A stretch of 64,000 bases of DNA from Hormiphora californensis. Its lineage: Eukaryota > Animalia > Ctenophora. Position numbers and translations under genes: made by a program. The stretch covers positions 2,170,001 to 2,234,000 of the forward strand of contig CM035358.1 in the NCBI GenBank assembly GCA_020137815.1, written 5' to 3'. The notes beneath the pieces were generated by a model. The model did no database searches and had not been told where the DNA came from. It was given only the letters and a program-made list of their open reading frames with translations. The first letter of the stretch is position 1. Each line of letters begins with the position of its first letter. This document shows positions 1-52,375 of the stretch, piece after piece.

Positions 1-858
1 ATCACAAAGTCCGTTAGGGAGATGGAGATAAAGAGAGTATTCGTTGGGCAAGACGGCTTCCTGTGGGGGAGGGGGAGTTAATGTCATATTGCCGGTAGTT
101 GAAATGTTGTGGAAGTTTTAGAATCATCAAATTCTCCATAGAATCTTCCAATTTTATGTTTATGTTTCCACAGAAATACCGGAATGTTGCGAAACTTTAT
201 TATAATAAACTTAAACTAACTCTAAGAGGCGAAACTATGACTCATGAAATTGAATAGTACATGTGTTTCCTATATGATATTGGCAGTAGTGGATGTAGTG
301 GCAAATTCAGTTGTAATTTCTTCTCCAATTAAGGTGTTACTATTCAGTCATAAATTACTCTCGATCAACCCCGATGTAAAGGTCAATTTGCCACTACGTA
401 ATTTACTTCGTGGAGAGCTGAATACAGTCGGACACGGATTCACCGGAACCCCAATTCACCGGGAGGATAAACTTCTCCCCGACATAGCAAATTAACGGTT
501 TGCCGGGAAGCCCCCTCAGCTCTCCCCCGAGCATCCCGGTAAATCGGGGTCCGACTGTGCGACCTCCATTCAGCACCCTCTCCTAACAACTCATCCCAAA
601 GTAAAAGAAGGGTAATTATATCATAGTAACTTCCACTTCCAACTATAGTTTTCGATTTCCCACTCGGGATCACTTCCATCCTTAATAAATACAAAGACTA
701 AACTTAATTGACACTGTTAATTAATACTCAATTAATTGGTACCTGATAAAGTAAGCTACACAGAGGGCGTTTAATATCGTCCCCACAGTAAACTCAACCG
801 ATGTTGCCGCACCATTGAGAGCGAAGTAGGTCATCCAGGATGTCGTGTTGTAACCCAT
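1..858 (-). CDS. Rhodopsin-class GPCR, 5' part (exons 858-743 and 60-1; continues beyond the window)
   Basis: Spliced translation MGYNTTSWMTYFALNGAATSVEFTVGTILNALCVAYFIR/KPSCPTNTLFISISLTDFV has an N-glycosylation sequon NTT, TM1 GxxxN and TM2 LxxxD-like motif. The phase-2 GT-AG intron 742-61 joins in frame. Confidence 0.7.
425..557. mobile_element. CAGTCGGAC-TIR MITE (Tc1/mariner-like)
   Basis: Termini CAGTCGGAC...GTCCGACTG, TA on the left; same family as 32482-32580 and 33777-33948. Confidence 0.75.
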
Positions 859-976
859 AGCTGTTTAAATAGGGAGAGAGTTGTTAATATTGTAACCTAT
901 AACTGTTGAAATAGGGAGGGAGTTGTTAATACTGTAACTGCATATCTATTTGAATAGGGAGAGAGTTGTTAATATT
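849..976 (-). repeat. 3 x ~42-bp tandem repeat spanning the GPCR acceptor and start codon
   Basis: Unit TGTAACCCATAGCTGTTTAAATAGGGAGAGAGTTGTTAATAT; on the minus strand it reads ...TTTAAACAG/CTATGGGTTACA. Confidence 0.8.
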
Positions 977-1025
977 GTTCATGTCGATTGTCGGAAAATG
1001 AAATATGTGCCAAAGTGCTACTATA

Positions 1026-2581
1026 CAGGGTGTCCCATATATTCTCCGGGTCGGTTGGCGAGCTGTCACGCAAAAACGGTGATAGTTGTGTGAAAACAAA
1101 CTGCGGGAGTGTGCTGGATTAATTCCTTCCTAACTGATGGCTTTGTTTTAAAATTAAATTTCAAAAGTTCATTTTTCATGAATGAACATTGCTGCCGTTC
1201 ATTCATGAATTCTGAAATATTGTTTACCTTGAGTAAGTAACTTTTCTTTGGCTCGCAATTATCTTTCCAATGAGCACCATAAAACTCAAATTGAAGCACC
1301 AGGTCACATGACAGTTGAGAAAATGAACATGCATGATTTTGGCTCTTTTTGCGACTTTCAATCGGCTGTATCACCGCTACCTTATCTTCAATCTTTTTGA
1401 AACTTTGGGTGAACATTGGATAAGCAAAGATCTTTGCTCACAAGAAAAATCAAGGTCAAAACTCAAAGTTCATTTTTAAGTTTTGGTAGTTCATTCCACT
1501 CATTCAGGAACCAACAACCCTAAAGTGATGAAAAGTGTTGGATTTTGCTTGGTCCATGTCCTGCAATGACAGAGAGGTGTAGTAACGTGTTTCCGAGCTA
1601 GTTAGTGGGTGCCATGTGATCATGACGATATCTGACACCTTCGTTGAGCAATAATTAAGAGATTTTCTCAAATTAAAGCATGTGATTCGGGTCTTCTGCG
1701 ATTGGTATCGTGCAGCAATCTTGAGAGATCTCATAGCACCTCGAAAATGATGAAAAGTTCAATAAATTGAGTTTATTTATGCTCAATAAGATTAAAACCG
1801 ATGCCACATTGAACTCAACGACCATTTTCGATAATAAATCAACTCATTTCATTGAACTAACCATCATTTTCGAGGGGCTATGAGATCTCTTAACATTGCT
1901 GCACGATACCAATCGCAGAAAACTCAAATCACATGCTTGAATTCGAGAAAATCCCTTAATTATTACTCAACGAAGGTGTCAGATATCACCATGATCACAT
2001 GACACCCACTAACTAGCTCTGAAACACGTCACTACACCTCTCTGTCATTGCAGGACATGAGCCAAACAAAATCCAACACTTTTCATCACTTTAGGGTTGG
2101 TGGTTCCTGAATGAGTGGAATGAACTACCAAAACTTAAAAATGAACTTTGAGTTTTGACCTTGATTTTTCTTGTGAGCAAAGATCTTTGCTAATCCAATG
2201 TTCACCCAAAGTTTCAAAAAGATTGAAGATAAGGTAGCGGTGATACAGCCGATTGAAAGTCGCAAAAAGAGCCAAAATCATGCATGTTCATTTTCTCAAC
2301 TGTCATGTGACCTGGTGCTTCAATTTGAGTTTTATGGTGCTCATTGGAAAGATAATTGCGGGCCAAAGAAAAGTTACTTACTCAAGGTAAACAATATTTC
2401 AGAATTCATGAATGAACGGCAGCAATGTTCATTCATGAAAAATGAACTTTTGAAATTTAATTTTAAAACAAAGCCATCAGTTAGGAAGGAATTAATCCAG
2501 CACACTCCCGCAGTTTGTTTTCACACAACTATCACCGTTTTTGCGTGACAGCTCGCCAACCGACCCGGAGAATATATGGGA
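1026..2581. mobile_element. ~1.55-kb palindromic (foldback) non-autonomous DNA transposon, Tc1/mariner-like
   Basis: Left end TA|CAGGGTGTCCCA. Two near-identical inverted arms give mirror ORFs 1066-1416 and 2198-2548, centred near 1800. The right terminal bases are missing. Confidence 0.85.
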
Positions 2582-3183
2582 TTAATAAATACCATATATT
2601 GCTTGTTGAGTTGCTGACACTGCATGTCACAGGCATAACTCAATTATTATTGGTTGGTACAAGGACGAGTCGAATTGTATTACATCCGAATGAACTTTGC
2701 AATTAAACAGATACTGAATTAATGATGAAACGAAAGGTGGCATTAGTAGGAATGTAGTTGAGGGAGAGAAGGGACTGGAAGAGACAGAGAGACCGGGTGA
2801 CGGCAACTCATATACTGGCAGATATTTAATATATTTAATATAAGCCAAAAACTAATTGAAATTAGTTGGCGGGAAAGGTGACCCACTTACACCTTTTGCT
2901 ACTGCCGGGTATCACCACGAACTCTCTCCTGTCCCTGTCTCTCTCTCTCATTCTCTCTCATTCTCTCTCGCTCTCTCTCTCTGCTCCTACTCTCATCTCT
3001 CTCCTCTGCTCTCTTCTCTCTTCTCTTCTTCTCTCCTCTCTCTCTTTGTCCCCTCTTCTCTCTCTCTCTTCTATCGCTCTCTCTGTCTCTCACTATCAAC
3101 TCTCTTCAATAGTACCAGGGTTTATAGTCGTGTTGTAACGACATCGGGCTGTTAACCATATGTTTAAATAGAGTAGTTAGATA

Positions 3184-3961
3184 GGGTAAACCGGGGCAAT
3201 TCGAACAACTGGGGCAATTCGAACATAGTACTGCCCGTCTCTCACCTAGTTAAGCTATCATAATGACGTCATCCTATCTCCAGAAGAAAACTGCTCGTTC
3301 GAGCCTGCCCGTTACCACTAAATAGGCTCTAGATCCGGTTTAAGTTGATCAATTTCCGATTTGAAAAAACCAGCTGAAAGCTAATAATATCAGCTTTCAG
3401 ATGGTATAAAAATTATTTAAATATTCGCATGTTTTCATTCCAAATTCTGGTAAATTAAGATTACCGGGGCAATTCGAACAACCGGGGCAATTCGAACATG
3501 GGCAATTTGGTTAACACACCGGGGCAATTTGGTTAACTCCCGGGCCAATGATGTACAGTTCTTTGCACCACGTGATCACGCGTGATACCGGGGCAATTCG
3601 AGCAAGAACGACCAGCGTGTAGATTGCGTGTAGATTACATTGTTCGAATTGCCCCCACCTCTAACAACACCAGGCGGGAATCTTCTTCTGGTGTTGTGAG
3701 GACGTTCACGTGACTCCCACGTGACGAAATAAAGCACTCCTATTGGTGATGCTCGAATTGCCCCGGTACCAATTTTTCCGACCAAAATTTTTCAATTAGT
3801 TATTTAGTTAAGTAAATGATGGTCCCTATAGTTGAAATTTATCTTATTTGAAAGATAAAATAATGAACTTTAATCCTATATAATTTTTTTCATTGTATCT
3901 TTTTTAAATGGGAGTGAGAACCGATTAAGTAAAAAGTTAACCATTTTGCCCCGGTTTACCC
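3184..3961. mobile_element. MITE with GGGTAAACCGGGGCAA TIRs and TA TSD
   Basis: TA|GGGTAAACCGGGGCAA...TTGCCCCGGTTTACCC|TA, with multiple internal GGGGCAATTCG motifs. The flanks rejoin into the local repeat unit. Confidence 0.85.
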
Positions 3962-4388
3962 TAGGGAGAGGGCTGTAACCCATAGCTGTTTAAATAGAGT
4001 AGTTAGATAGGGAGAGGGTTGTAACCCATAGTTATTTGAATAGAGTAGTTAGTATTGCTGAGGTTAATGCCAATGGTATTACCATACTGCTTGTTGAGTT
4101 GCTGACATTGCGTCCCACGCATAACTCAATTATCATTGGTTGGTACAAGGACGCTGGACGAGTTTGTTTTGTTCAAACGCGGGGAGGGAGGGTCGAACAA
4201 GGCAAGGACGAGTCATTGTATAATTACATCCGAATGAACAATTAAACAGATACTGAATTAAAGATGAAACGAAAGGTGGCATTAGTAGGAATGTAGTTGA
4301 GGGAGAGAAGGGACTGGAAGAGACAAAGACAGAGAGACCGGGTGACGGCAACTCTTGTGGCAGATATTTAATATTTCGAGGTTTTAAT

Positions 4389-6680
4389 ATATTGAGAAAT
4401 TTTGGTTCTATCTCGCTGATCCCCCTCTCTGATCCCTTTCTCTCTGATCACTCAGGTGTCTCCAATAATTAACTATTACTGGTGCGAGACACTTACAAGA
4501 GATTACATGAAATGACAGTGGCGAGAACATACCGATTAGATATTCTAAATCACAAAACTAAAAACAAAAACAGAGCTCGGGATACAAAATCACATATATT
4601 AATTAATATCAAGTAGGAAATATGTGATGGGGATCTACTCACTACTCAGCTTCTACTAGAAAACCGATTAATTCGTTAAGCTGAGACTGGATATAATATG
4701 TGTCGCCGTCTGCCCTAACGATATACGATTCAACGCATCTTATTAATAAAGATATCACTATACAGAGATCACCAGACAGCAATCAGTAATCACATAAGAG
4801 ATGAACCCCTCGGTCCTTTTGAAGATTATAAGCCGAATCATGAATATCATCAGGTAGTTCTCCACCACCAGGTCATAACCCTTGAACTGTACACAGCAAA
4901 GATCGCCTACGCCAATATGAATAAAAATCATAGTCATTCCTCCCGCAAAACTTTCTTGCTTTCCCAAAAATTTTTCTCGCTCTCTCTTCTATCTCTCGAT
5001 CTCTCTCTGTCTCTCACTATCAAACTCTCTTTCACTGCCTTATTCAATTATATTCACCTCTATATCCTGATCCGGCAGCAGGCAAAGGTTTACGTGTGTC
5101 ACCTTTCCCGCCCAACTAAAGTTTCAATTAGTTTTTTGGCTTAATTTAGGTCCCTTTTTGGTTTCTAATCGTAGCATGAGATTATTCATGATGTAATATT
5201 GTCGAAATGATGCGCTATATGAGAAACGAGACGAATTTCTGTGAAAATCGTATTTAGGAACGTCGTAATGACGTCATTTGACGTAATTAGTGACGTCGTA
5301 ACGACGTAATTGCATCACGATATATTTTGAATCAATACCCCAAAAGGAGCTTGTAAAGTTTCATTGACCACAGTGGTCAGGAAAGGGAGTTTTGCTCGAA
5401 AAAACGTGAATTTGCTGAATTTTTCTCGTCAAATTTTTGACTTTTGACGCGATTTAAGGGCTCAAAATGATAAGCTACGAAAATTCACAATACAGTATCT
5501 GAAAGTTCAGACAATTTGCCGGTAACGATTTTTCGGTCAAATCAGAAATCGGAACACGTCTTTAGGGTGCTAGAGGCGTTTGAAAAAAGTTAGTCGGTCT
5601 CGCGCAATGACGTCACTCGTGACGTCATTGCGCGCGTCATAGCTAAGATGGAGAGTCTCCACCCAGATGGGTACATGCACGAGACAATTATCTGTCGAAT
5701 GCCGCTTGGTTTAAGGTCGTACGATGTCTGGTTCGTCTCAAACTGGGACCAAACGGATGGTAACAAAGCGTCTATACATATATATATATATATCAACCTA
5801 GTTATCCCCACACTGAATTTTCTGTTTTGGGGGTGGTGTTATAACTTTTGAACAAAAAGAGCTAGCCACTTGAAATTTTTACCATCGATAGAGGTCTACA
5901 AGAAGCTTCTAAGTACAAAATTTCAGTTTCCTAGCTCTTCCGGTTCGGGAGTTATGGCATGTCAAAAAGTGCCAAAATGGGCTAAAAGTATGAAATAACT
6001 ATATATACGCTGTGAGCAAGCGGTCCGTTTTGGGGGGAAATTTTTTTTCGGGGGATGGATGGGGTCACCTTTGCGCTTGCCAGCGCAGTGATATTGAGAA
6101 ATTTTGGTTCTATCTCGCTGATCCCCCTCTCTGATCCCTTTCTCTCTGATCACTCAAGTGTCTCCAATAATTAACTATTACTGGTGCGAGACACTGACAA
6201 GATGCATGAAATGACAGTGGCGAGAACATACCGATTAGATATTCTAAATCACAAAACTAAAAACAAAAACAGGGCTCGGGATACAAAATCACATATATTA
6301 ATTAATATCAAGTAGGAAATATGTGATGGGGATCTACTCAGCCCATACTTCTACTACAAAACCGATTAATAACGAGACTGAGAGGATATAATATGTGTCG
6401 CCGTCTGCCCTAACGATATACGATTCAACGCATCTTATTAATAAAGATATCACTATACAGAGATCACCAGACAGCAATCAGTAATCACATAAGAGATGAA
6501 CCCCTCGGTCCTTTTGAAGATTATAAGCCGAATCATGAATATCATCAGGTAGTTCTCCACCACCAGGCCATAACCCTTGAACTGTACACAGCAAAGATCG
6601 CCTACGCCAATATGAATAAAAATCATAGTCATTCCTCCCGCAAAACTTTCTTGCTTTCCCAAAAATTTTTCTCGCTCTCT
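4389..6680. repeat. ~600-bp direct duplication (4389-~4985 and 6092-~6680) separated by probable transposon fragments
   Basis: Near-identical sequence and duplicated short ORFs (4758-4967 and 6453-6692); 2590-2830 is also duplicated at ~4080-4370. Confidence 0.8.
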
Positions 6681-6756
6681 CATTCTATTCACCCTCTCTT
6701 TTATTTCTTGATCTCTATCTTTCTTTCTCCCTCTAAATCTCTCTCAACTTTTACAG

Positions 6757-14089
<7,333 letters not shown>

Positions 14090-16973
14090 TATTGACAAAA
14101 TCAGGGAACTCTTAGGGGGGATTGTGATCCGATCCGAGGACTCCCAATGCCACCAAAATCAGGGCAGGGAACCGGTTGTATGAATGTTGTATAAATGTGG
14201 TGAAATGGGAAACTGTAATAGTACATAATATAGTGTGACTGATTGTGTATGCACTACCTACCTAACCTTTTAGTCGACCTTAGAGACGCGTCTATTGTCT
14301 ATTGTCTATTGTCTATTGTCTATTGCCTATTTCCCTGCCCCGCCTCTCTTTGCCATGCTACGCAGTCTGTCTGTTCGGCACTTTAAGCGCCTCGGGCTCA
14401 CGTAAGCTCACACCGGGCCTTCGGCCCGGTGTTAGAGCTGGCCAAACCCCGATTTGATTCTCGTAAGTGCGCTCAGATGAGGTCGTGGCACCAGACAATG
14501 TCTTTGAGGGTTTTTAGTTAGCAACTAAGTTACATAACCAACTACATTTTCGATTTGATCAGAGCGGTTGACATTAACTTGAACCCCGTTCTGCCCGGGG
14601 ACCCTACGCACGGGGAAAATCTCTTGGCCACTTGGCACCGCTGATGAATACCGGTGAATGGTACCAACAACATTCAAATGGAACTCTTTGACTTGATGCC
14701 AAGCGGTAAAATATCCTGACTAGGTATCACCTGACCTATGAGAGGTGTTAAATTAAGACATACAGGAGACCAACTGGTTCCATTAACAGTTATAATGGAA
14801 CTGGTTGGTCTCAGCTGTGTATGATAATAATATATTGATCCCAAACCTTTCATCAACAATACCCACTTTCCAAGACTGATCTTAGCACAGCCATTAAATG
14901 AAACTTTCATTCAATGGCTTTCACTTTAGCACTGCTAAAGTGAAAGTGAGTATTGTTAAGGACACAGGTAGAGTGCTTTGATGTTCAATGAGAATTTATA
15001 GCTACTTTTAGCTAAAAGCTTGAGGCCAGAGACAGAAACTAGAAAGACATAGTTTACCAGTTACTGCAATACTATTACAGTTCATATGGGTACTTTCTCA
15101 TTAAGCATCTGTTGATTAGGTGCTACCTTCACTCCCCTCATTCGTGGTTTTCAGAAAGGAATTAATTGTAGCTATTATAACAATTAATATGACGTGATCA
15201 ACTGCTATAGCCCAACTGTTCATTCTGAGAATTCTGATACAAAGATATTATTGGCCGTACTGATATATGAGGTAACTCCAACCCCCCAGTTTCATCTCCT
15301 TGTTTAACATGGGAGTTACCAAGGGAATCCACTGGGTTCGATTAATCTAGGCACATACCCACAGTACTATTCGAATTGGCGTATCTTTATATCAGGAATC
15401 TCGGATAGCAACAATCCTTGTGTTTTATTGCTATCTGAACAGATTAGGCGTATAGACAGGGCTCTTATTATCAGCAGTGCTCACGTATCAGGATAATGGT
15501 ATTAATTATGCACTGAACTGCTGTAGACATCACCCACTCACTTCATACACACACAACACCCACACACATGACCAAGCCTGTACGACAGGTTATTGATCAC
15601 CGGCTGTATTACAGCACGAGAGAGCCGTCACTAGTATCGTGCAGTGATCCGAAGATCATGATAACAATTAATAAGACGTGATCAACTGCTATAGCCCAAC
15701 TGTTCATTCTGAGAATTCTGATACAAAGATATTATTTGCCGTACTGATATATGTGTGTGGGTGTTGTGTGTGTATGAAGTGAGTGGGTGATGTCTACAGC
15801 AGTTCAGTGCATAATTAATACCATTATCCTGTAGCTATTATAATTGCTACACCATGGTACTTCTCAATCAACCTAGCTGACAGCACTGACCACATGAACA
15901 CACTGTAATGGTATTGGTATTGGCTGCCATGCCACATGACGACATCATGTTCATGTTGGCCACATTGATGCCTGAGTGAGATCGAGGTCGCGCAGCGACC
16001 GAGATCGATCTCACATCTAGGCCTCCGGTCCGTTATTGATTTTAGAGCAAATTTTTTCAAAGACCTGGCTGCAAGGAACTACTGAACCAATTTGCATCTC
16101 GTTTGTTGCTCCTGGCAGATAATTATCTCTAGTTTTACGGAAAATACCCGCGAGTATCAGCATTTGAGGAATAGTGGGTCAAAATTGACGCTAAACATGA
16201 GCAATTCTTTAAAGACCTGGCTGCAAGCTCCTACTCGGTCCTGGGGCGATCTGCGGGTACTGGGGGAATCGTCATGGCCTTGTGAGTATGGGAAAATACC
16301 CGCCGATTCATCACGATGCGAAATGAGGCCATAATTGACCTTTGAGTAGTGCTAGGTCAGCTAAAAAGGTCTCCAAAAACGGTCTATCACGCGCGATCTG
16401 CTGAAAACGTGCTTTATATCGCGCGCACGTGAGTTCTTGCTCTCAACGGACCGGGATCCTATTATTCGCGGAGCGAGAATAGGATGCGATGGATCCAAAT
16501 GTTCATGGAACTATGGCCTGATGGAAGAATTCTCCAATTAATATTTTCAACGTTGTCATTGTGAACTGTATGGCTACGCCAACCCGATCTGAGATTTAAC
16601 AATCAAATTTTGATTGTCAAATCTCAGATCGGGTTGATATCGCCAGACAGTTCACAACGTTGAAAATAATAATTGTTTTAAACATTGTTTTATACGGATC
16701 AACTCAACGTCAGACCACGTTTTGATTCAAAATGAGGTCTGACGTCGTTAAGTTGGTCCCTATAAAACAATTTTCATGAACCACCAGGTCCAACAGTGGT
16801 TTTACGTCATAATCACATTGGCAGCCCACTAAAAGCACGACTTGGACCGCGTCGTGGGCGGTGCTATGTGGGCGGCCAATATGAAATTATGACGGAGGAC
16901 CACTGGAAGCAACATTTACTGCTAATGCTATACCCCTGACAGTATACCACCGAAACTTGTCGAGTTAACGTAT

Positions 16974-17122
16974 GGGTCAGCACACACCAAAGTTAAAATT
17001 AAAATTAAAATTTTGATTCTAAACCCGCACACACCAGCGGCCGTTAAAATTTCTCTCCCCATTCTAAAAGTAACAATCTCGCGCACGATTTTAATTTTAA
17101 CTTTTATTTGGTGTGTGCTGAC
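16974..17122. mobile_element. Small MITE with GGTCAGCACACACCAAA inverted termini
   Basis: GGGTCAGCACACACCAAA ... TTTGGTGTGTGCTGACC, followed by a further partial terminus. Confidence 0.6.
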
Positions 17123-17488
17123 CGGGTCAGCACACACCAAAGACCCTTATTATATTGGCCACCCACTAACAGCTTTCAACATTGCACACCTTGGACGCGT
17201 CGTGGGCGGCCAATTTGATGGAGCGTACCACTGGAAGCAACATTTACCGCTATACCCCCAGAAACCAAGTTTCAAACGCAGGAATCTGGCTGGGTATGAA
17301 CTAATGTATTAATACAATAACATAATTATATAAATAGAGGTGAAATATATCAGGGTAAAAAGTCTCAAAATATAGTGAGAAAGATGCAATCACAATTCCT
17401 CCTCGGAACCAGTATTTTGGGAATATTATATCGTCACCAACTCAAGCTCATGATCAAGATACAAATGTCTCTCTGATACGGTCTTCCT

Positions 17489-38006
<20,518 letters not shown>

Positions 38007-38313
38007 GGCCTGGTATTATAGAGAATGGGTTAGCACAACATTATCGTGGGGGTGTAGTACATTAAAACGGGGAGGGGGTTAGTACACTAAAATGGGGTGA
38101 GGGGGGGGGAGGAGAAGGGGAGGGATGACGGATGCTATAAATACATACAAGGAGTCGGGATCTATAAAATTAATTAGAAGAACATCAAATTAACAGGAAA
38201 ACAAAATATTTTAGCATCTTCAATAAGTCAACAACACACCCCGGCCACCGCACGAAAAACATCATCCTCCAATCAAATTTATACACACACTGCCCTCTCA
38301 GGGACTTCACATC

Positions 38314-38766
38314 TCAGTAGGTGAGAGTTGCAAGGGTAATGGTATCTTCACTTCTCACCAGGACCTTCACTGTGCTATACTCAATGCAGACTGTACTACC
38401 AGGGGCTGACTGCTGAGCGATAAATGAAACGTTGGAGATGAGAGATGCATCCATTGTTACCCCTTCTCTGCTCTCTTTGGCGAGGACCAACCCTTGCTGA
38501 GGGGAGATAGGTTGTTTCAATCAAGATGCTATGGAGCTGTAGAGAGCAAGTTGAATAAAATATTGGTTACTAACCAATGATAATCTCAATTTCTTAAAAC
38601 CAACAAAAAATAGCTCGAATGCCAAACTCCCAAATTGCGTGTGATGTGTCCTAATTTCTCAAACCCAACAAAGCCCCGTTTTTACCTTGTTCAGGTAGAT
38701 AGCTGCCTGTATCCTCATATCACTGTTTAACAGAGTATCTAACCTGCCTTGTAGATCTTTTTCCAT
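38314..38766 (-). CDS. LAMTOR5: Ragulator complex subunit LAMTOR5/HBXIP-like, 87 aa (exons 38766-38686 and 38496-38314)
   Basis: MEKDLQGRLDTLLNSDMRIQAAIYLNK/QGLVLAK...IAQQSAPGSTVCIEYSTVKVLVRSEDTITLATLTY resembles LAMTOR5 (QGLNL, LAQQAA, VVCLES, ITVAV) in size and motifs. Confidence 0.7.
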
Positions 38767-38896
38767 CTTTCTATTACAAGTAGTAGGGGAACATAAATTG
38801 GGGATTTTACAAGCAGGGCTGAGTATCAAATAACATCATTTTACAAAATCTATTAAAAACATTAAAAAGGGTTACTAAAAAACTGTTGACTGTACA

Positions 38897-39311
38897 TTAA
38901 TTTTGTTTCCACACCGATCCATCCTTATACCATTCCTTCTTCCAAATAGGAGCCCTTGCTTTGATCAGATCCACAGCCTTACTAACAAACTCAATAGCAG
39001 CTGCTCTGTGTGGTGATGATGCGGCCACCACAATACTAACCCCACCAACCCCCACCTCTCCAACCCTAGTGCGCCACATAAACCCTCCTAACATCACCCC
39101 CTCCAATCTCCTCCACCAGCTCCCTGATCACTTTATCTGCCATTGTGGGGTATGCCTCGTACTCCAGTCGGACCACCTCCCGACCTTTGAAGTTATCCCG
39201 GGTTGTCCCGCAGAAGACGGAGATGGCCCCACAATCTGGCCGTGTCACATGGTCCTACTGCTTCGGTGGGGTTTAGAGGTTCATTCAGCTGATCTTCACA
39301 ACAACCTCCAT
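38897..39311 (-). CDS. MOCS2: Molybdopterin synthase catalytic subunit (MOCS2B/MoaE), with apparent frameshifts
   Basis: [44 protein letters not shown] and [12 protein letters not shown] are split over frames by single extra bases. Confidence 0.85.
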
Positions 39312-39748
39312 GTCATGTTCTAGAGCGGGGAAGAGAGGAATTAAACTAAGCAGGTATATAGCAAAGATGAATCGAGTGCGAGGAAATGATAAAATCACTT
39401 AACAGGGGAAGGTTTGGGGAGGAGTTAAAAATATCAGGGTGTGGGAAAATTGTAAAACTCAAATTGGGTAACGAATGTGTAATAATTTAACATTTATAAA
39501 AATCAAATTATGTATTGAGCTCACAGGAAAATCAAATTTAATCAAATAAAAACCATAAAAACCCTCCCATCTCACATTTCACGATATCCACCAGTCCAGT
39601 CTTTACTCCAGAGGATGGTGTGTTGTGATGGGAGATAGGGCGAGATGATTGTTTTAACTCCAGACCTGCTTCTCTGTGACGTCACCCAAGAAACACCACC
39701 ACGACTTGCCAAGCTAGACTGTGTTTACAAGTGTAAAGGGGGGGGGGG

Positions 39749-41254
39749 TTAGAACATAACAATACCACGGCCAGGCCTAGGATGATTTGTCCTGATGTGA
39801 AGGGTTAAACTTTCCTCAGTCGCCGCGATAAATCTACAGCGTGGACATGATAATTTGGCACTTTTCCACCCCCTCTTTCTCTGCACCGCCCCTATTTTTG
39901 CCTCGATCCGTTTTCCTATCGCAGCCAATTTTGTCATATTTTCAGGTCTGCCTGTCTGCGTTCCGTAAGGGCATAACAGTCCCCGGGGTGGTGGTTTGAG
40001 TGGTGCTGCAGTCGGGCCAGGATTTACCGAGATGCTTGGAGAAAAGGGATCCGAGTTTGAGTAAGATTTGGTTAACTCCCAATGCTGGGGTTCCGGTAAA
40101 CTGGGTTCCGGTAAATCGGGATCCAAATGTTTTGTCATTTCTCTCTCTTGACGGTTTGTCCGTTTGTCTGATTGTGATTCCTGCGTCTGGATCTCGTGAT
40201 AGTTTTGAGATACTGATTTAGGAGCTATCGGCCGATACTTTTTTGAGAGCTGCTCCATTTCATTATTTGGTATATATCTTTTAGCTGTGCAAATCAGCTC
40301 CCTGTTAGGTGAGGTAGGCCGGGTAATTCCTCCATCTGCTGACGAGGGCTTACAGGATAAATGAACCTCATTCGACCTGCCAAGGAATTGAACGTAATTT
40401 GACCTGGCAAGGAATTGAACCTCATTTGACTTGCCACGGCTATTATAAATGAGGGGGTACACAGCCGGGTGTTCTAATCTCATGTGTCTATAGAGGCAAC
40501 CAAAATACTTTGTCTTATAGTCACAATAATCACAATGTTTAAGAAAATTGGGACGGACTTTTATCCTTTTAGGATGTTTCTCCCGAATGTGTTGATCCAA
40601 CGCACCATGACACGTTGTCTTATAGTCACAGAAATTGCAATGTTGTTCCAGATCTGTATGGATGGTCTGAGAAGGAGGACTCCGTGAGGTGGGAGATAAA
40701 TGGCACGGAGAGATATTCACCCCAAGTGGGGTAGGCGAAGGAGTGGAACTGGATCGATGGAGAGCTGCAGGAGTGGTGTTGTGTTTAGCAGTAGCTGAAG
40801 GTGTTGTGTTGGGTTTAGGAGTAGCTGAAGGTGTTGTGTTGGGTTTAGGAGTAGCTGAAGGTGTTGTGTTGAGCTTAGGAGTAGCTGAAGGTGTTGTGTT
40901 GAGCTTAGGAGTAGCTGAAGGTGTTGTGTTGAGCTTAGGAGTAGCTGAAGGTGTTGTGTTGAGCTTAGGAGTAGCTGAAGGAGCGGTTCTGGTATTGTCC
41001 TGTTTGGAAAGAGGAGTGGTATTGGCCTGTTCGGAGGGAGTAGAGCTCCAAACTAACTCACACAGCTCCGGGTCCTCCACTAATGAAGTAGCCGTACTCC
41101 GGTAAAGAAAATCCTTATTTCTGGATGGTGGAACATTACCTATTCTGTATGCCAGTGACCCAGTCCCGCTAGTATTACAAGCCTCTTGCAGGGACACATC
41201 CCACGCCTCAGAGATCTCTTTGAGGATGTCCCAAACTACTGTATCAGCCGTCAT
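39749..41254 (-). CDS. C2H2 zinc-finger protein, paralog 3 (501 aa, with TPSATPKLN repeats)
   Basis: Intact ORF with CNFCDYKT...HIREKH, CDYCDYKT...HMRLEH and CPRC...HIRTNH. Confidence 0.8.
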   Translation of the reverse strand: MTADTVVWDILKEISEAWDVSLQEACNTSGTGSLAYRIGNVPPSRNKDFLYRSTATSLVEDPELCELVWSSTPSEQANTTPLSKQDNTRTAPSATPKLNTTPSATPKLNTTPSATPKLNTTPSATPKLNTTPSATPKPNTTPSATPKPNTTPSATAKHNTTPAALHRSSSTPSPTPLGVNISPCHLSPTSRSPPSQTIHTDLEQHCNFCDYKTTCHGALDQHIREKHPKRIKVRPNFLKHCDYCDYKTKYFGCLYRHMRLEHPAVYPLIYNSRGKSNEVQFLARSNYVQFLGRSNEVHLSCKPSSADGGITRPTSPNRELICTAKRYIPNNEMEQLSKKYRPIAPKSVSQNYHEIQTQESQSDKRTNRQEREMTKHLDPDLPEPSLPEPQHWELTKSYSNSDPFSPSISVNPGPTAAPLKPPPRGLLCPYGTQTGRPENMTKLAAIGKRIEAKIGAVQRKRGWKSAKLSCPRCRFIAATEESLTLHIRTNHPRPGRGIVMF

Positions 41255-41664
41255 AGTGTCTAGATAGGGGGAGAAATGTATTAGATACTGGGAGAGAGTG
41301 AGGGGAGGGAGAGATGGGGATATATGAGGTACTGGAAGATGAGGTGTTACAGAGGGAGAGGGAGGGGGGAATAAGGGGTTCAGGAATCAGGAGACGAAGG
41401 GTGAAGACAAAAACAAGGAGAATTCGTTTAATAAAAAACGCATTCACATAAAACAGAGCGTGGAACGTCCCTGAACCGCTACCTGAATGATGCTGATGTT
41501 GTCTAACAGTAGGTGATGGTGTCACATGTCTAACAGTAGGTGATGGTGTCACATGTCTAACAGTAGGTGATGGTGTCACATGTCTAACAGTAGGTGATGG
41601 TGTCACATGTCTAACAGTAGGTGATGGTGTCACATGTCTAACAGTAGGTGATGGTGTCACGTGC

Positions 41665-42879
41665 CTAACTAGCGATGATGACGCCACGATAACACTTGAT
41701 CGGGTGTTTGTTACGCATGTGGTTCCGGAGGGTCGCCCAGGATTTACTCTTGTAATCGCACTCCTGGCAAGACCACTCCTTGTCCCTTTGTCCCCCGCTC
41801 GCGATCCTCTCCTGGATTCGATCCGCTATGCAGGGCATCTTGCCCTTGGGTCGACCCGTTGGTGGAATGGGGACTAACTCCGACGGTATATCAAACTCAA
41901 AGGGGCATGGTTGACGGGGAGGTGGTCGGGGAGGTGCCTGTATTTGGGGAGGTCGAATTTGAGGTCGGGGCAATATCGGCCGATACTTTTTTGAGAGCTG
42001 CTCCATTTCGGCGTCCCGTTCTTCTGGTATATATCTTTTAGCTGTGCAAATCAGCTCCCTGTTAGGTGAAGTAGGCCGTGTAATTCCTTCCTCTGCTGAT
42101 GATGACTTACAGGATAAATGCACCTCATTCGACCTGTCAAGGAATTGAACCTCATTTGACCTGCCAAGGTTTTGATTGGATTGCAGTTCCCTGTTATTAA
42201 TAAGGGGGTACACAGCCGGGTGTTCTAATCTCATGTGTCTATAGAGGCAACCAAAATACTTTGTCTCGTAGTCACAATAGTCACAATGATTAACATGTGC
42301 ATAACTATCACGGACCAGGACCTTTATCCGTTTAGGATGTTTCTCCCGAATGTGTTGATCCAACGCACCATAACACGTTGTCTTATAGTCACAAAAATTG
42401 CAATGTTTTGTATTCTTGGGAAGAATGGTCTGAGTAGGAGGACTCCGTGGGTCGGGAGATAAATGGCACGGAGAGATATTCACCCCAAGTGGGGTAGGCG
42501 AGGGAGTGGAACTGGATCGATGGAGAGCTGCAGGAATGGTGTTGAGCTTAGGAGTAGCTGAAGGTATGGTGTTGAGCTTAGGAGTAGCTGAAGGTATGGT
42601 GTTGAGTTTAGGAGTAGCTGAAGGTGTTGTGTTGAGCTTAGGAGTAGCTAAAGGTGTGGAGGGAGTGGAACCCCAAATAAACTCACACAGCTCCGAGTCC
42701 TCCACTATTGAAGTAGCCGTACTCCCGCAAAGGAAATCCTTATTTCTGGATGGTGGAATATTACCTTTTCTGTATGCCAGTGACCCAGTCCCGCTAGTAT
42801 TACAAGGCTCTTGCAGGGATACATCCCACGCCTCAGAGATCTCTTTGAGGATGTCCCAAACTACTGTATCAGCCGTCAT
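41665..42879 (-). CDS. C2H2 zinc-finger protein, paralog 2 (chimeric; possibly a pseudogene)
   Basis: The N-terminal part is nearly identical to paralog 3 (MTADTVVWDILKEIS...), and the C-terminal part is nearly identical to paralog 1 (QPCPFEFD...WSCQECDYKSKSWATLRNH). Confidence 0.72.
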   Translation of the reverse strand: MTADTVVWDILKEISEAWDVSLQEPCNTSGTGSLAYRKGNIPPSRNKDFLCGSTATSIVEDSELCEFIWGSTPSTPLATPKLNTTPSATPKLNTIPSATPKLNTIPSATPKLNTIPAALHRSSSTPSPTPLGVNISPCHLSPDPRSPPTQTILPKNTKHCNFCDYKTTCYGALDQHIREKHPKRIKVLVRDSYAHVNHCDYCDYETKYFGCLYRHMRLEHPAVYPLINNRELQSNQNLGRSNEVQFLDRSNEVHLSCKSSSAEEGITRPTSPNRELICTAKRYIPEERDAEMEQLSKKYRPILPRPQIRPPQIQAPPRPPPRQPCPFEFDIPSELVPIPPTGRPKGKMPCIADRIQERIASGGQRDKEWSCQECDYKSKSWATLRNHMRNKHPIKCYRGVIIAS

Positions 42880-43202
42880 AGTGTCATGGTGTCTAGATAT
42901 GGGGAGAGATGTATTAGATACTGGGAGAGAGTGAGGGGAGGGGGAGAGATGGGGATATATGAGGTACTGGGAGAGAGGGAGTATTACATAGACAGAGAGG
43001 GGAGTGTTACAGAAAGGGGAGAAATAAAGGGTCAAGGAGAGGAAGGGTTTATGGGTGTAGATTGTAGACACTAGACACAAAACAAGGAGGATTCGTTTAA
43101 TAAAAACGCATTTCAAGTTTGTTCACATAAAACAGAGCGCAGTCCAAAACAAACGAAAATTATCTTTCTCATCAGATATGTATATTAAAAAATCATCCAA
43201 TA

Positions 43203-46200: not shown

Positions 46201-46729
46201 ATTATACTGATAACAATCAAATTATATATATCACCTCACTGTGGTAATAAATTAAATATACCTGAGTGACAGGTTGTCGGATCATAAGTCGCGTTGTGAC
46301 AGTAGGAATAGCAGCAATGGACACTGGAGTCAGTCTAACTGGACGGGGAGGGCTCATTATAAGGACATTGTTAGCTGGCCTCACTAAAACAGGCCTCACT
46401 CCATTCATTTCTGTGATATGAACTCCTTGTTTCTGAGGGCTGATTCCCAGTTTCTGGGGGCTGACTCCCTGTTTCTGGGGGCTGCTAACGGCCACGGACA
46501 CCAGCCGAACTGAAGGCTGGGGACTCGCCCGATGTTGTTTGAGGGGCGACGAGTTGTTGATGTGACCTGTTGCAGTGGCTATCGGGCTAGTTCGGATTGG
46601 TTCGAGTCCTGGGAAGAGAAGTTTTGATGGGTTGTTGTCTGATGATGTTGTTTGTTGGGGTGTTGTTGAGACGGTATTGTTGCTAGTAGCTCCATTAGTT
46701 GATGGGCGGGAAGCAGGTGATTCAGTCAT
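43203..46729 (-). CDS. Large Pro/Thr/Ser-rich C2H2 zinc-finger protein, paralog 1 (exons 46729-46262 and 46178-43203; ~1147 aa)
   Basis: Two long ORFs joined by a phase-0 GT-AG intron; about six CxxCxY...H fingers in the C-terminal half. Confidence 0.82.
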
Positions 46730-46750
46730 ACGATATCACACCGCCATCCT

Positions 46751-46956
46751 AGACACCTATAAAATAGAGGGTGAGACACTTGTAAAATAGAGGGTGAGAC
46801 ACCTATAAAATAGAGGGTGAGACACCTGTAAAATAGAGGGTGAGACACCTATAAAATAGAGGGTGAGACACCTATAAAATAGAGGGTGAGACACCTATAA
46901 AATAGAGGGTGAGACACCTATAAAATAGAGGGTGAGACACTTGTAAAATAGAGGGT
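46751..46956 (-). repeat. 23-bp minisatellite (~9 copies) built on the acceptor upstream of the zinc-finger ATG
   Basis: Minus-strand unit ACCCTCTATTTTATAG|GTGTCTC. Confidence 0.93.
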
Positions 46957-47302
46957 GAATCGGAGGTGAAACACCTATATATAATATTGGGCGAGAAAGG
47001 TCGTTCAATGGACAAAACAGAGGGAATTTGGATTTGGGGGTGAGATGTACATGTCCTATACCGATCGGGTGTGGAATATTCAACATTGCTAGGGATTGGG
47101 AATTAACTGTTGTCGCTTGTAAAAGCTGTTCAAAGAAAGACCTACAAAACAAAATAAAAAACAAATCACCCAGAGTCCTCCTCATTTATTCGACAATCTC
47201 TCTCACCACACACGCCCAAGGTTGTCATACTGTAACGTCGCACACGCTACTTGAGTTTCGCTATTGTGAGACCAGTAAAAGTAGGATAACGTCATCTCCT
47301 TT

Positions 47303-50300
47303 TCAAGAGGGTTCTGCAGATTTGTCTAAAGACCATATCCTAACAGTCTCGTCATCCCCAGCGCTTGCCAGCAGGCTTCCTTTCCAACTCACGCAGTTTA
47401 CATCACCTGGTGGATCAATTAGCTAATTAGATAACAATCAATGTAGTGGATAGGAATAATTAATTGGTTAATTAGTTAATTAGTTAATAAGGTAATTACC
47501 CAATGACGTAACATGTACCTTGGTGGGCGTTTTGTTGAGTGTGCGAAAGGAGAAGAGAAGTACCGTGTGCCTCAAATAATCGGATAGCATTGTCACCACC
47601 GGCTGTGGCAACGTATCTAGAGGGAATTAGGGGATTAATTAGCAGGGAATTAGGGGATTAATTAGCAGGGAATTAGGGGATTAATTAGCAGGGAATTAGG
47701 GGATTAATTAGCAGGGAATTGGGGGATTAATTAGCAGGGAATTAGCAGGGATTAATTAGCAGGGAATTAGGGGATTAATTAGCAGGGAATTAGGGGATTA
47801 AGACCAGAGGGGGGGGTCCGAGGGTCAAAAAATGCACTTTTCTGAGGTTTACATATGTGATGTAACTCGGAGGTAGGAAAGTTTTGGATAGGGTAGCTGC
47901 GCACCAAGTGTATTAGGAGGCCCTGTTTTTTGAGGTTAACTTTTCGCCCAAAATGAATGTAAACCTCAAAAAAGCTTGTATTTATATCACCTACACAGTT
48001 TAAAATGGTACCAATCGATAGATCTTATCAAGGAGACCAAGTATTCAAAGTTTCAGAGGTCTAAGCCATATAGTTGTCCAGATATTTGAGGTTAACATAT
48101 ATCCCAAAAAATAACATTTTGTTGGATAACTTTAGGTCCACAATTTCACTTTATGCTCCACTTCCTGAAGAGACGGCTAGGACCTGGGCCTTGAAACTTG
48201 GCAGTTATGATCCTGAAATGGTGAACTAAAAATCTGGTGCAGCGATTTTTGATTTAGGCCCTAGTTCCTGAAATATTGAGGTTAACATTTTAAAAAGCTT
48301 GATTTTTGAAACGTTAACCTCAATATTTCAGGAACTAGGACCTAAATCAAAAATCGCTGCACCAGATTTTTAGTTCACCATCTCAGGATCATAACTGCCA
48401 AGTTTCAAGGCCCAGGTCCTAGCCGTCTGTTCAGGAAGTGGAGCATAAAGTGAAAAAAATGTTCTGAAATATTCAACAAAAGGTTGTTTTTTGGGAGATA
48501 TGTTAACCTCAAATATCTGAACAACTATGTGGCTTAAAGCTCTGAAACTTTGAACACTTGGTCTCCTTGATAAGATCTATCGATTGGTACCATTTTCATC
48601 TGTTTAGGTGACATAAATACAAGCTTTTTTGAGGTTTACATTGATTTTGGGCCAAAAGTTAACCTCAATTTTCTCCTTAACGGTGCGCGCTAAAACGTTT
48701 CCAACTATTTCATCTGGTCCGGCTCTTCGAGCCGGACCAAACCCCGAAAGTGACTTTTTAGACCCCCCGACCCCCCCCTCTGGCCTTAATTAGCAGGGAA
48801 TTAGCAGGGATTAATTAGCAGGGAATTAGGGGATTAATTAGCAGGGAATTAGGGGATTAATTAGCAGGGAATTAGGGGATTAATTAGCAGGGAATTAGAG
48901 GATTAATTAGCAGGGAATTAGGGATTAATTAGCAGGGGATTAATTAGCAGGGAATTAGGGGATTAATTAGCAGGGAATTAGGAGATTAATTAGCAGGGAA
49001 TTAGGAGATTAATTAGCAAGGAATTAGGGGATTAATTAGCAGGGTTCTGGGGATAGAAATACGCTAGTTAGAGGATCTGATTAGCTGTTAATATTACTCC
49101 TTGAGCACTCCAGTAATGAGTGGATATCCGATATTTAGTGACTAATTATCCACGAATTATCCACTAATTATCTAATAATTATCCACTAATTATCCACTAA
49201 TTATCTACTAATTATCTACTAATTATCCACTAATTATCTACTAAATATCTAATAACTATCTACTAATTATCCACTAATTATCCACTAATTATCCTACCTT
49301 GATCCCCAGCTGACATCATATATTGTTCGAGGATGAAAACCACAGATGCTGCTTTTGCAGGTGTAACGACCCTGAAAAGAAGTAGTGTATTATTAGCAAC
49401 TTTGATCCACAATCCACAGAATTAAGGTAACCCAACACATGCTGAGGACCACCTTTTTGAGGAAGAGCACCGTAAGAACTGGTTAACACAGACCTAACAT
49501 ATATGTAACATAATATAATGTAACATTGTATTACCTCATCTTTACACCAAACCCGCAGAGTTCGATCATCACTGCAGGTTACAAACTTATCCCCTGACTT
49601 ATTGAACGCTATCGACCAAACCGATGAAGAGTGTCCTGCATGGAGAGAATTAGTTAAAAACGCAGTAAGGCGCGAGTGGTTGATAATCGGGGAGGGCGAG
49701 AGAATAAACAGATTGAAAACGCTTTCAAAATCATGAAATTGCTTTTTTTGTGCTGATATTGGCTAGCCCCAACCTGTAAGTGTGTCTGTACATTCCCAGT
49801 CATCTCCGTATTCCTTATACACTCTGATAGTGTCGTCATAGCTGGCTGATAACAAGGTCGGTTCAGTAGGATGCCATAACACTTTCTTAACATCCTGGGT
49901 ATGTACCTGAAATCAGGCATGGAATTAGGAATTAAACAAGGAATTACCTGAAATTACGGGTATACCTGTCAAATAAATGTGACACGTTGAAATATTAAAC
50001 AAACCAACTGCAAGACACTTCACACTGTACTACTACATAAAGTATGTGTATATAATTACAAGTTACAGGTACATACATAGTCACAATTATACACTGTATA
50101 ATTGTGTCAATGTATGTACCTGTAACTTGTAAGCTATACTAGGTAACGCAAGGTACACTCACATGTATACATGTGGATTTGTACCTGTACTGTAAAATAT
50201 TTGTACTGTACCTGTACTGTACCTGTACTGTACCTGTACTGTACTGTAAAATGTGTGTACAAATGCGTTTCATGATGTACACTACCTGGAAGACACACAC

Positions 50301-52375
50301 AGGCCAGTGCTCACAGACATGGCACACCATTCCCGTGCACACTACGTAATTGTGTCAATGTAATACATTTTCGGAGATCAGTACCTGTAAGACACACTCG
50401 TACTCCCAACATGTACAGTACCTGTAAGACACTAGCACACTCGTATTCCCAACATGTACAGTATCTGCAAGACACTAGCACACTCGTATTCCCAACATGT
50501 ACAGTACCTGTAAGACACTAGCACACTCGTATTCCCAACATGTACAGTACCTGTAAGACACTAGCACACTCGCACTCCCAACATGTACAGTACCTGTAAG
50601 ACACTAGCACATTCGTATTCCCCATCCTCCATTACATCCCAAATCCAAACACTCTTGTCCCTGCTACAACTGGCTAGGTAGTCACCGTCCCTTGACCACG
50701 CTACACTCTTCACCTAGGGGGGGGGGAGGTTAGGGGAGGAGGTTAGGGGAGGGCGGTTAGGGGAGGGAGTCACCGTCCCTTGACCACGCTACACTCTTCA
50801 CCTATAGGGGGAGGGGAGGGGTTAGGACTTAGGGCCGGGGGAGGGAGACTGGGGCAAGGTAGTCACCGTCCCTTGACCACGCTACACTCTTCACCTATAG
50901 GGGGAGGGGAGGGGTTAGGACTTAGGGCCGGGGGAGGGAGACTGGGGCAAGGTAGTCACCGTCCCTTGACCACGCTACACTCTTCACCTATAGGGGGGAG
51001 GGGTTAGGGGAGGGGAGGGGCCGGGGGGCTTGGGGGGAGGAGACTGGGGCAAGGTAGTCACCGTCCCTTGATCACGCTACACTCTTCACCTAAAGGGGGA
51101 GGAGGTTAGGGGAGGGCGGTTAGAGGAGGGTGGTTAGGGGAGGGAGACTGGGGCAAGGTAGTCACCGTCCCTTGATCACGCTACACTCTTCACCTAAAGG
51201 GGGAGGGCGGTTAGGGGAGGGTGGTTAGGGGAGGGTGGTTAGGGGAGGGTGGTTAGGGGAGGGAGACTGGGGCAAGGTAGCCACCGTCCCTTGACCACGC
51301 TACACTCGTCACCTAAAGGGGGAGGGCGGTTAGGGGAGGGTGGTTAGGGGAGGGTGGTTAGGGGAGGGTGGTTAGGGGATGGGATACTGGGTCAAGGTAG
51401 TGAGAAACAGTATAGATGTATAAACCCTCCCCAAATTGGTTCAAAGGGCCGGGGAAAGGGAATCGAGCTGAGACCAGAGCGAGAGAGAGCTCTCACTCCC
51501 GTCTCCACCTCGACTATACCTCATTCTCATGTCCTTCCAGGGTAGTTTCTAGTTCCCATTGATCATCCTTCAGCTCCCAAATACACGTGGTACTGAAACA
51601 CGTGTTCAATATAATAATCAGCATGAACCGACCGAATCAGGAAATACTGGTCTCTGATTGGCTGATAACCAGTCACGTGACCTAAATAACGAGTTCTGAG
51701 GACCCTTGCTCTGCCGAACCCTCACTGAGCGCATATGGGCGACACAGAAGGACCCCATCCCAACCCCGATAGTCCCAACCCCGAAAGTCTCGTCGAAAAT
51801 GGCAACTTGACAGTAATTACCTGTCGATATACTGGCAGTATAAAAATCATTACCTGTCGAAGCTAGCAGTAGCAAGTTTCCTTCCACAAGGTGACCAGGC
51901 TACCTGTCTGATAGTCCTTGTGTTACCACCCTCCAGAGTTAGGAAGTTAACCCACTTTTCACCCTCCTGCCGCCATAACCGCACCGTCTTGTCCTGGCCT
52001 GGTGGAAGAGAGAGGTTTTATTTGAGTCGCTGTAGACACTCTGTTCAATGTGATCAAGTCTAAGTTTCCAGGGAGTCTGCAGGACTAAACATCTCCGTTT
52101 GGGCTTTATCAAGCGTACAATGTAACACAAGGGAGTCACTGTTATGCAGCTAAATTCGAAACATTAAATATGGGTGCAAGTGTTCCACTCCCTTTCCCTT
52201 TTGTGGCTCACACCGTCATTTTATTTCAAAAGTTAAGCGTGCTCTGTTATGGTTCGGTAGATCCCCCTGCTTTATTACCTGTGGATGCAAGTGTTTTGCT
52301 GATGGGACTCCAGTCAACACTCCATACCTGTCCAACATGCCCCTTCAAAGCAGTCACCTCTACCAGACATACCAT
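47303..52375 (-). CDS. CIAO1: Cytosolic Fe-S assembly WD40 protein CIAO1, multi-exon
   Basis: [47 protein letters not shown]...[27 protein letters not shown]...[14 protein letters not shown]. Confidence 0.9.
47620..49045 (-). repeat. 23-bp minisatellite AGGGAATTAGGGGATTAATTAGC in a CIAO1 intron, interrupted by a transposon
   Basis: Directly visible on both sides of 47802-48785; an 11-bp TAATTATCCAC array follows at ~49141-49275. Confidence 0.92.
47802..48785. mobile_element. Palindromic MITE with TTAA TSD and purine-purine termini (Kolobok-like)
   Basis: TTAA|GACCAGAGGGGGGGG...CCCCCCCTCTGGCC|TTAA with a long internal inverted repeat centred near 48300. A truncated related end lies at ~54582-54640. 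Confidence 0.8.
50381..50620 (-). repeat. 43-bp tandem repeat of the CIAO1 exon end plus donor
   Basis: Unit ...GAATACGAGTGTGCTAGTGTCTTACAG|GTACTGTACATGTTGG; the true junction is 50594/50593, with five further copies. Confidence 0.92.
50678..51400 (-). repeat. ~90-120-bp tandem repeat of the CIAO1 acceptor plus exon start
   Basis: Seven copies of TAG|GTGAAGAGTGTAGCGTGGTCAAGGGACGGTGACT; only the copy at 50713 continues into the real exon. Confidence 0.92.

What the first reader, a model, noticed from the sequence alone, without database searches (positions are those of the whole stretch)
849..51400. Recurrent tandem amplification of splice junctions: six arrays in five unrelated genes
Seen: minisatellites at 849-976, 9729-11130, 34824-35308, 46751-46956, 50381-50620 and 50678-51400 have unrelated sequences. 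Each unit is a copy of the neighbouring functional donor or acceptor, often with exonic bases, and the array always extends into the intron or 5' flank while the coding exon stays intact. Four of the six carry AG|GT at the junction. Established: tandem duplication of AG|GT segments is a classical model of intron gain, and AG|GT points support recursive splicing. Inference: this lineage may have a splice-site-anchored repeat-expansion process and a strict exon-proximal rule for choosing among many identical sites, or it may use the arrays as ratchet or decoy sites.
Basis: partly seen in the sequence, partly recalled or inferred. Interest (0 to 1): 0.8.

Follow-up and report, generated by a model that had tools for sequence, protein, structure and literature searches.

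The report
Comb-jelly splice-junction "mirage" repeats
In five genes of a comb jelly, short pieces of DNA at exon edges are copied head-to-tail 3 to 41 times, a repeat type already known from lancelets ("mirages"), and they are likely tolerated by-products of local duplication that splicing would mostly skip.

Summary
All six arrays exist and overlap exon edges in five genes of a ctenophore (best named SMC2 hit Bolinopsis, 59%). Three are clear junction copies (A2, A5, A6); A3 holds only 2 exonic bases; A1 and A4 copy an acceptor-like AG just before a start codon, likely a trans-splice site (no RNA). They match the "mirage" minisatellites of amphioxus, a name I took from earlier notes of this scan, which found the pattern elsewhere in this genome and in at least 22 genomes. 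AG|GT is background here (41 of 50 donors, 24 of 50 acceptors). Only 1 of 59 AG|GT points in the arrays is both a good acceptor and a good donor. A4 is a single unit in a second individual's contig; A5 is missing from a related species' contig. This argues against ratchet or decoy function. Distal copies score as well as the true sites, but using them gives a stop within 5-21 codons. Enrichment is borderline over all arrays (6 of 31, 2.7 expected), absent for two-copy echoes, and clear only for arrays of 5 or more copies (5 of 9, 0.9 expected; post hoc, selected window). Real, known kind.

The parts
848..978 (-). A1: 42-bp unit x3.1; copy of an acceptor-like AG at 861/860, two bases before the first ATG of a GPCR-like gene (name recalled); likely 5' UTR or trans-splice acceptor
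   Evidence: acceptor scores 4.3 (proximal), 5.7, 3.1
9729..11132 (+). A2: 30-43 bp units, 41 donor copies, starting at the donor of guanylyl cyclase exon 9576-9731; 3 exonic bases
34825..35308 (-). A3: 16-bp unit x30 = first bases of SMC2 intron 8 (donor CT|GTAAGT at 35307/35306); 2 exonic bases
46751..46958 (-). A4: 23-bp unit x9 = 17 nt pyrimidine tract with AG plus 6 nt of 5' UTR, 27 nt before the ATG of a zinc-finger gene; single unit in sample S2
50393..50622 (-). A5: 43-bp unit x5.3 = last 29 nt of CIAO1 exon 4 plus first 14 nt of intron 4; absent from the organism B contig
50594..50713 (-). CIAO1 exon 4 (120 nt, 40 aa), flanked by A6 upstream and A5 downstream
   Evidence: matches CIAO1 residues 108-146 over query residues 1-39
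50672..51401 (-). A6: 88-119 bp units, six distal copies of the CIAO1 exon 4 acceptor with about 42 exonic nt
   Evidence: back-joint 50760->50676 in run X3
49141..49294 (-). extra: 11-bp unit x14 starting 3 nt inside CIAO1 intron 7 at the donor; shorter version in organism B
49904..49954 (-). extra: 10-nt two-copy echo of the CIAO1 exon 5 acceptor, 41 nt apart; organism B lacks the 41 nt
51816..51860 (-). extra: 12-nt two-copy echo of the CIAO1 exon 2 donor, 33 nt apart
47621..49044 (-). extra: 23-bp array ending about 5 nt before the CIAO1 exon 8 boundary (does not span it), split by a TTAA-flanked element

Best explanation
These are junction-spanning minisatellites of the "mirage" kind, likely born as ordinary local duplications, likely amplified by unequal exchange, and likely tolerated because splicing would mostly use the site next to the full exon while other products would be degraded. 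Step 1 (inferred): short duplications arise throughout the short, indel-rich introns; about 1 in 10 spans an exon edge by geometry. Step 2 (inferred): those that leave the exon whole survive. Step 3 (shown for A4, hinted for A5): copy number differs between individuals, as for any VNTR. Step 4 (inferred): the copies carry only 2-42 exonic bases, so they lack the rest of the exon and its partner site; exon definition would favour the live site, and nonsense-mediated decay would remove leakage. At A1 and A4 the choice would change only the 5' UTR.
For: Anatomy matches the published description (PMC3087553 passages; PMC3902484 passage). Units of the six arrays are unrelated and each matches its own junction. 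One 711-nt contig of sample S2 joins 46774 to 46980, a single unit at A4. One 1729-nt contig of organism B runs from CIAO1 intron 7 through exon 4 with about 290 nt where the window has 686, and no A5. Stops follow within 5, 7 and 10 codons past the A2, A3, A5 donors and within 5-21 codons of all 6 distal A6 acceptors. Two-copy echoes at junctions are at background (3 of 93 against 1.5%, P 0.17); 0 of 15 arrays under 3 copies span a junction. Human precedent: a 68-bp duplication of the CBS intron 7/exon 8 junction yields normal mRNA (PMC2630376 passage).
Against: Arrays with 5 or more copies span junctions more often than random placement gives (5 of 9, 0.9 expected, P 4e-4; P 1e-3 with 25% more junctions), and spanning arrays have more copies (P 0.002), which pure neutrality does not predict. 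No RNA shows which copy is used. A6 copies are strong acceptors (13.7-14.5 against 15.3) with a weak but possible donor behind them (3.7, above the 10th percentile of real donors), so some use is not excluded. Exon definition in ctenophores is not shown by anything I read or ran.
Confidence: 0.63

Rival explanations
1. Exon-edge-biased expansion. Seeds arise anywhere, but seeds holding an exon edge grow more: in a very polymorphic genome alleles would pair in the conserved exon, and the exonic part of a copy would give a second landing site for unequal exchange. The arrays would still have no function.
For: Excess only among high-copy arrays, none among two-copy echoes. The fixed differences between copies and live exon are synonymous in both arrays that allow the test: GAA/GAG in 5 of 5 A5 copies, CTA/CTT in 5 of 6 A6 copies with the sixth CTC, as expected if the copy came from another working allele. 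A pleurobrachiid ctenophore has about 3.2% heterozygosity with indel-rich introns (PMC8527503 passages).
Against: The window was picked for this pattern, thresholds were chosen after seeing the data, n is 9. Two synonymous changes could equally be later changes in the live exon. A2 and A3, the largest arrays, hold only 3 and 2 exonic bases, too few to pair. No genome-wide test was possible.
Confidence: 0.24
2. Functional ratchet points or decoys: the arrays tune splicing or expression, or AG|GT units let a mis-spliced RNA be spliced again to the right product.
For: Copies keep strong single sites: 40 of 41 A2 donors score 9.7-9.8, 5 of 5 A5 donors are identical, A6 acceptors 13.7-14.5. At A6, use of a distal acceptor would rebuild GAG|GTGAAG, a possible donor (sequence; score). 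Human ABCA7 VNTR length is linked to aberrant splicing (PMC13747324 passages).
Against: 1 of 59 AG|GT points reaches the lower quartile of both real acceptors and real donors. Host introns are 619-2174 nt; recursive splicing is known from much longer introns (recalled). A4 is absent in one individual's contig, A5 in organism B. Strong sites are expected in young copies.
Confidence: 0.07
3. Intermediates of intron gain (Rogers-type duplication of AG|GT).
For: PMC3087553 proposes mirages as a route to new introns; four arrays carry AG|GT.
Against: The duplications copy existing junctions, not exon-internal AG|GT. CIAO1 exons 4-7 align in one organism B contig with breaks in the same introns. AG|GT is background.
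Confidence: 0.03
4. Assembly artefact.
For: Several exons carry apparent one-base indels (SMC2 exons 2, 4, 8; POLR1A exon 4), so the assembly is imperfect.
Against: Contigs of run X3 hold a back-joint at A6, depth peaks at A5 and a 129-nt piece with two distal A4 units and no difference. A2 has 30 distinct unit variants among 40.
Confidence: 0.03

Closest known systems
Amphioxus 'mirage' minisatellites (Adh3, globins BflGb6/BflGb9, troponin C, PGBD5). Seen: passages of PMC3087553 and one passage of PMC3902484; the original Adh3 paper was not held
   Same: Tandem copies spanning an exon-intron boundary, at 5' or 3' edges, units of 10-160 bp, many copies keeping splice signals, copy number differing between haplotypes
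   Different: Here in a ctenophore; two arrays lie at acceptor-like sites before a start codon (likely trans-splice sites); normal splicing is reported for amphioxus but untested here
Human CBS 844ins68 (PMC2630376, passages)
   Same: Duplication of an intron/exon junction; the site that keeps the exon whole is used and mRNA is normal
   Different: One extra 68-bp copy, not an array
Human ABCA7 intron 18 VNTR (PMC13747324, passages)
   Same: Length-variable array next to a splice donor; reads that use donors in the intron meet premature stops
   Different: Effect on splicing is reported; the passages I saw say 'adjacent to' the donor, not a copy of the junction
Recursive (ratchet) splice sites (features recalled, no call)
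   Same: AG|GT points inside introns
   Different: Here they are repeated, lineage-specific, in short introns, and almost never both a good acceptor and a good donor

Membership tests
mirage minisatellites | tandem unit spans a real exon-intron boundary | tested here: met
   A2 (3 exonic nt), A5 (29), A6 (42); A3 marginal (2 nt)
mirage minisatellites | the boundary is real for the two 5'-end arrays (A1, A4) | tested here: inconclusive
   acceptor scores 4.3 and 9.1 against real median 8.5, 10th percentile 3.9; no RNA
mirage minisatellites | both donor and acceptor edges can be copied; units about 10-160 bp | tested here: met
   three donor and three acceptor arrays, units 16-119 bp
mirage minisatellites | many copies keep splice signals | tested here: met
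mirage minisatellites | copy number differs between haplotypes | tested here: met
mirage minisatellites | mRNA is spliced normally | not testable with these tools
   no RNA holder listed
mirage minisatellites | somatic length instability; concerted evolution sparing array ends | not tested
   only unit variants of A2 were counted
recursive splice sites | AG|GT that is both a good acceptor and a good donor | tested here: not met
   1 of 59 points; A6 borderline
recursive splice sites | conserved between individuals and species | tested here: not met
   A4, A5
recursive splice sites | lariat or saw-tooth nascent reads | not testable with these tools
   no RNA
intron gain by tandem duplication | a new intron position bounded by the duplicated AG|GT | tested here: not met
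   CIAO1 exons 4-7 only, one organism B contig; other genes not compared

The most novel reading that the evidence does not exclude
Repeats that hold an exon edge expand preferentially, driven by exon-anchored unequal exchange between very divergent alleles; the process also amplifies spliced-leader trans-splice acceptors (A1, A4); and the survival of exons such as CIAO1 exon 4 between six rival acceptors and four or five rival donors of equal strength shows exon definition at work in ctenophores despite a median intron of 258 nt, with one-unit and many-unit alleles as a ready-made test.
Probability: 0.2. Interest if true: 0.55.

Novelty: new member of a known kind. Interest (0 to 1): 0.22.

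Why it matters
As it stands, a clean ctenophore example of a repeat class named in amphioxus. My searches of the held library listed no ctenophore report, but the scan's notes list the pattern many times. If expansion proves biased to exon edges genome-wide, it would explain how mirages grow. Natural one-unit and many-unit alleles (A4) would let one test exon definition and trans-splice site choice in an early-branching animal without engineering. The arrays are also a trap for gene annotation and read mapping.

Tried and rejected
No whole genome is held, so no genome-wide test. No RNA holder listed; the guessed RNA run X12 laid 0 records and X11 laid 0: no evidence either way. A homolog search with CIAO1 exon 2 returned only long WD40 proteins; POLR1A returned no ctenophore among the 120 listed. 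A metagenome scan with a repeat motif gave 4 contigs of 1.0-2.3 kb with only a microsatellite-like and a 12-bp repeat: too little for an independent test. The acceptor scores were misaligned by one base on the minus strand and were redone; the LTR identity was out of register and was redone. The intron-swap control measures chance likeness only and overstated the echoes; the intron-interior control replaced it. Depth over A5 is far higher in X5 (14,074-20,601 against flanks of a few hundred) than in X3 (2,207-4,600), but the tool states depth is no copy number, so it is a hint only. Organism B at A4 is unclear: contigs break at 46782 and 46930 and one goes back with 27 other letters, perhaps a different repeat. 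Organism B at A6: the contig runs on unlike the window after 50726 and no back-joint is listed, but table 8 was cut. Papers not held: the Adh3 mirage paper and the 2010 ctenophore trans-splicing paper. PMC8724738 and PMC10078293 passages gave nothing on duplicated junctions. The protein atlas did not answer, so the GPCR label rests on recall. No supplements were read.

Full report
Setting. The window is intron-rich animal DNA. The SMC2 coiled-coil exon is 59% identical to Bolinopsis microptera and 35-39% to the other hits, and POLR1A is about 48% identical to cnidarians and bilaterians alike, so it is a ctenophore; I did not place it more finely. I modelled seven genes by hand: PSMB6, POLR1A, CIAO1, a zinc-finger gene, SMC2, a guanylyl cyclase and a GPCR-like gene (last name recalled). 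Pfam, PDB and tblastn support the exons next to A2, A3, A5 and A6. The 50 introns are all GT-AG, median 258 nt. No whole genome and no RNA run were available.

Observation. All six arrays are present and overlap an exon edge by 13, 3, 2, 6, 29 and 42 bases. A2, A3 and A5 start at donors; A6 ends at an acceptor; CIAO1 exon 4 carries arrays on both sides. A1 and A4 copy a pyrimidine tract and AG 2 and 27 nt before the first ATG. Seven gene starts in the window have such an AG with scores 4.1-9.1, and three of four further starts have one within 80 nt; 10% of all AGs score 5 or more. A pleurobrachiid ctenophore carries spliced leaders on at least 56% of long cDNA reads (PMC8527503 passages), so I infer trans-splice acceptors, though a 5' UTR intron would look the same.

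AG|GT. 41 of 50 donors and 24 of 50 acceptors read AG|GT. Three donor and three acceptor arrays give about 3.9 expected; four were seen. This feature carries no information.

Enrichment. After removing microsatellites, coding repeats and arrays in five marked elements, and merging one split array, 31 non-coding arrays remain; 6 span one of 107 junctions, against 2.7 expected from random placement of one unit (P 0.048; 0.11 with 25% more junctions; 0.009 with elements left in). With 3 or more copies it is 6 of 16 (1.5 expected), with 5 or more 5 of 9 (0.9 expected, P 4e-4); under 3 copies 0 of 15. In the gene-dense half alone it is 4 of 18 (P 0.20) and 4 of 6 (P 0.007). Short two-copy echoes at junctions outside arrays are 3 of 93 against an intron-interior rate of 1.5% (P 0.17). 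So seeding looks like background and any excess lies in growth. The window was chosen for this pattern and the cut-offs are post hoc, so this is a lead and not a result.

Reality and age. Contigs of run X3 show a back-joint at A6 and depth peaks at A5, and two distal A4 units without a difference. In run X5 (another sample) one 711-nt contig joins 46774 to 46980, so A4 is one unit there. In run X7 (organism B) one 1729-nt contig runs from CIAO1 intron 7 through exon 4 with about 290 nt where the window has 686, without A5 and without the 41-nt stretch that holds the acceptor echo; the 11-bp array near the exon 7 donor is present but shorter. These are contigs: no copy numbers, and direction of change rests on one outgroup.

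Site choice. A matrix from the 50 real sites scores the copies as high as the live sites: A2 40 of 41 at 9.7-9.8, A5 5 of 5 equal, A3 copies 3.1 against 2.1; A6 13.7-14.5 against 15.3, A4 six of seven distal sites at 9.1 or more. Strength cannot choose. Pairing across the shortest intron would pick the wrong copies, so I infer choice by exon context: copies hold at most 42 exonic bases and no partner site. Reading past the live donor meets a stop in 5, 7 and 10 codons (A2, A3, A5), and all six distal A6 acceptors meet one in 5-21 codons, so leakage would feed nonsense-mediated decay and no strict rule is required. Human CBS 844ins68 is a precedent for the exon-preserving choice (PMC2630376 passage).

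Ratchet and decoy. Of 59 AG|GT points in the six arrays, one reaches the lower quartile of both real acceptors and real donors. A6 is borderline, with strong acceptors and a donor score of 3.7, so re-splicing after an error is not excluded there. Absence of A4 in one individual and of A5 in a relative argues against need.

Copy versus exon. The fixed differences are synonymous in both testable arrays: GAA/GAG in 5 of 5 A5 copies and CTA/CTT in 5 of 6 A6 copies; scattered later changes include stops. I took this test from earlier notes. It fits copying from another allele in a polymorphic species but also later change in the live exon.

What is known. PMC3087553 (passages) describes tandem duplications of exon-intron boundaries in amphioxus Adh3 and globins, termed mirages, with 10-160 bp units, haplotype length differences, normal splicing and an unclear origin; PMC3902484 (one passage) adds troponin C and PGBD5. 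The name and first paper came to me from the scan's notes; a word look-up lists 118 such notes in at least 22 genomes. These are unchecked AI notes and I count them as leads only. Library searches for ctenophore with tandem repeats, intron and splice site and for mirage, minisatellite and amphioxus listed no ctenophore report; most subscription papers are not held.

Verdict. Real, a new member of a known kind, most likely without function. What stays open is whether exon-edge seeds grow preferentially, and whether A1 and A4 are amplified trans-splice acceptors. Interest 0.22.

Noticed in passing
7204-7355 and 7546-7849; 12515-12567 and 12571-12688: (GA)n and (TC)n tracts lie together in guanylyl cyclase introns 1 and 5 and could pair in the pre-mRNA; (TC)n tracts end 7-29 nt before three acceptors.
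   Followed up: no
47621-49044: A 23-bp array upstream of the CIAO1 exon 8 acceptor is split by a ~980-bp element with inverted ends and TTAA on both sides (piggyBac-like, label recalled).
   Followed up: partly
20575-29141: LTR-type element in SMC2 intron 16: 1234-bp terminal repeats 99.9% identical, GCGC on both flanks, longest open frame inside 256 aa; likely young and non-autonomous.
   Followed up: partly
18480-19961: A single-exon, cysteine-rich secreted or membrane protein gene (thrombospondin-like, recalled) nested on the same strand in SMC2 intron 17.
   Followed up: no
39960-42890: Two partial tandem duplicates related to the zinc-finger gene (77-90% identity), each with an acceptor-like AG just before the ATG and with coding 27-30 bp repeats.
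   Followed up: partly
17500-63725: A run of closely packed minus-strand genes, most with an acceptor-like AG shortly before the start codon: possible trans-splicing or operon-like arrangement.
   Followed up: partly
37265-37347: tRNA-Leu(AAG) on the + strand inside SMC2 intron 2.
   Followed up: no
9729-11132; 20215-20298; 52896-52971: Units carry an X-box-like palindrome (RFX motif, recalled): 21 partial copies in A2, full matches at 10448 and 20284.
   Followed up: partly
SMC2 exons 2, 4, 8; POLR1A exon 4; 38900-39320: Apparent one-base indels break frames in conserved genes, and a MOCS2B-like gene (name recalled) has frame breaks; likely assembly errors.
   Followed up: no
3962-4052: Decayed two-copy relative of the A1 unit, without the exon.
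   Followed up: partly
975-2580 and 29660-31190: Two related elements made of long near-perfect inverted repeats (seen).
   Followed up: no
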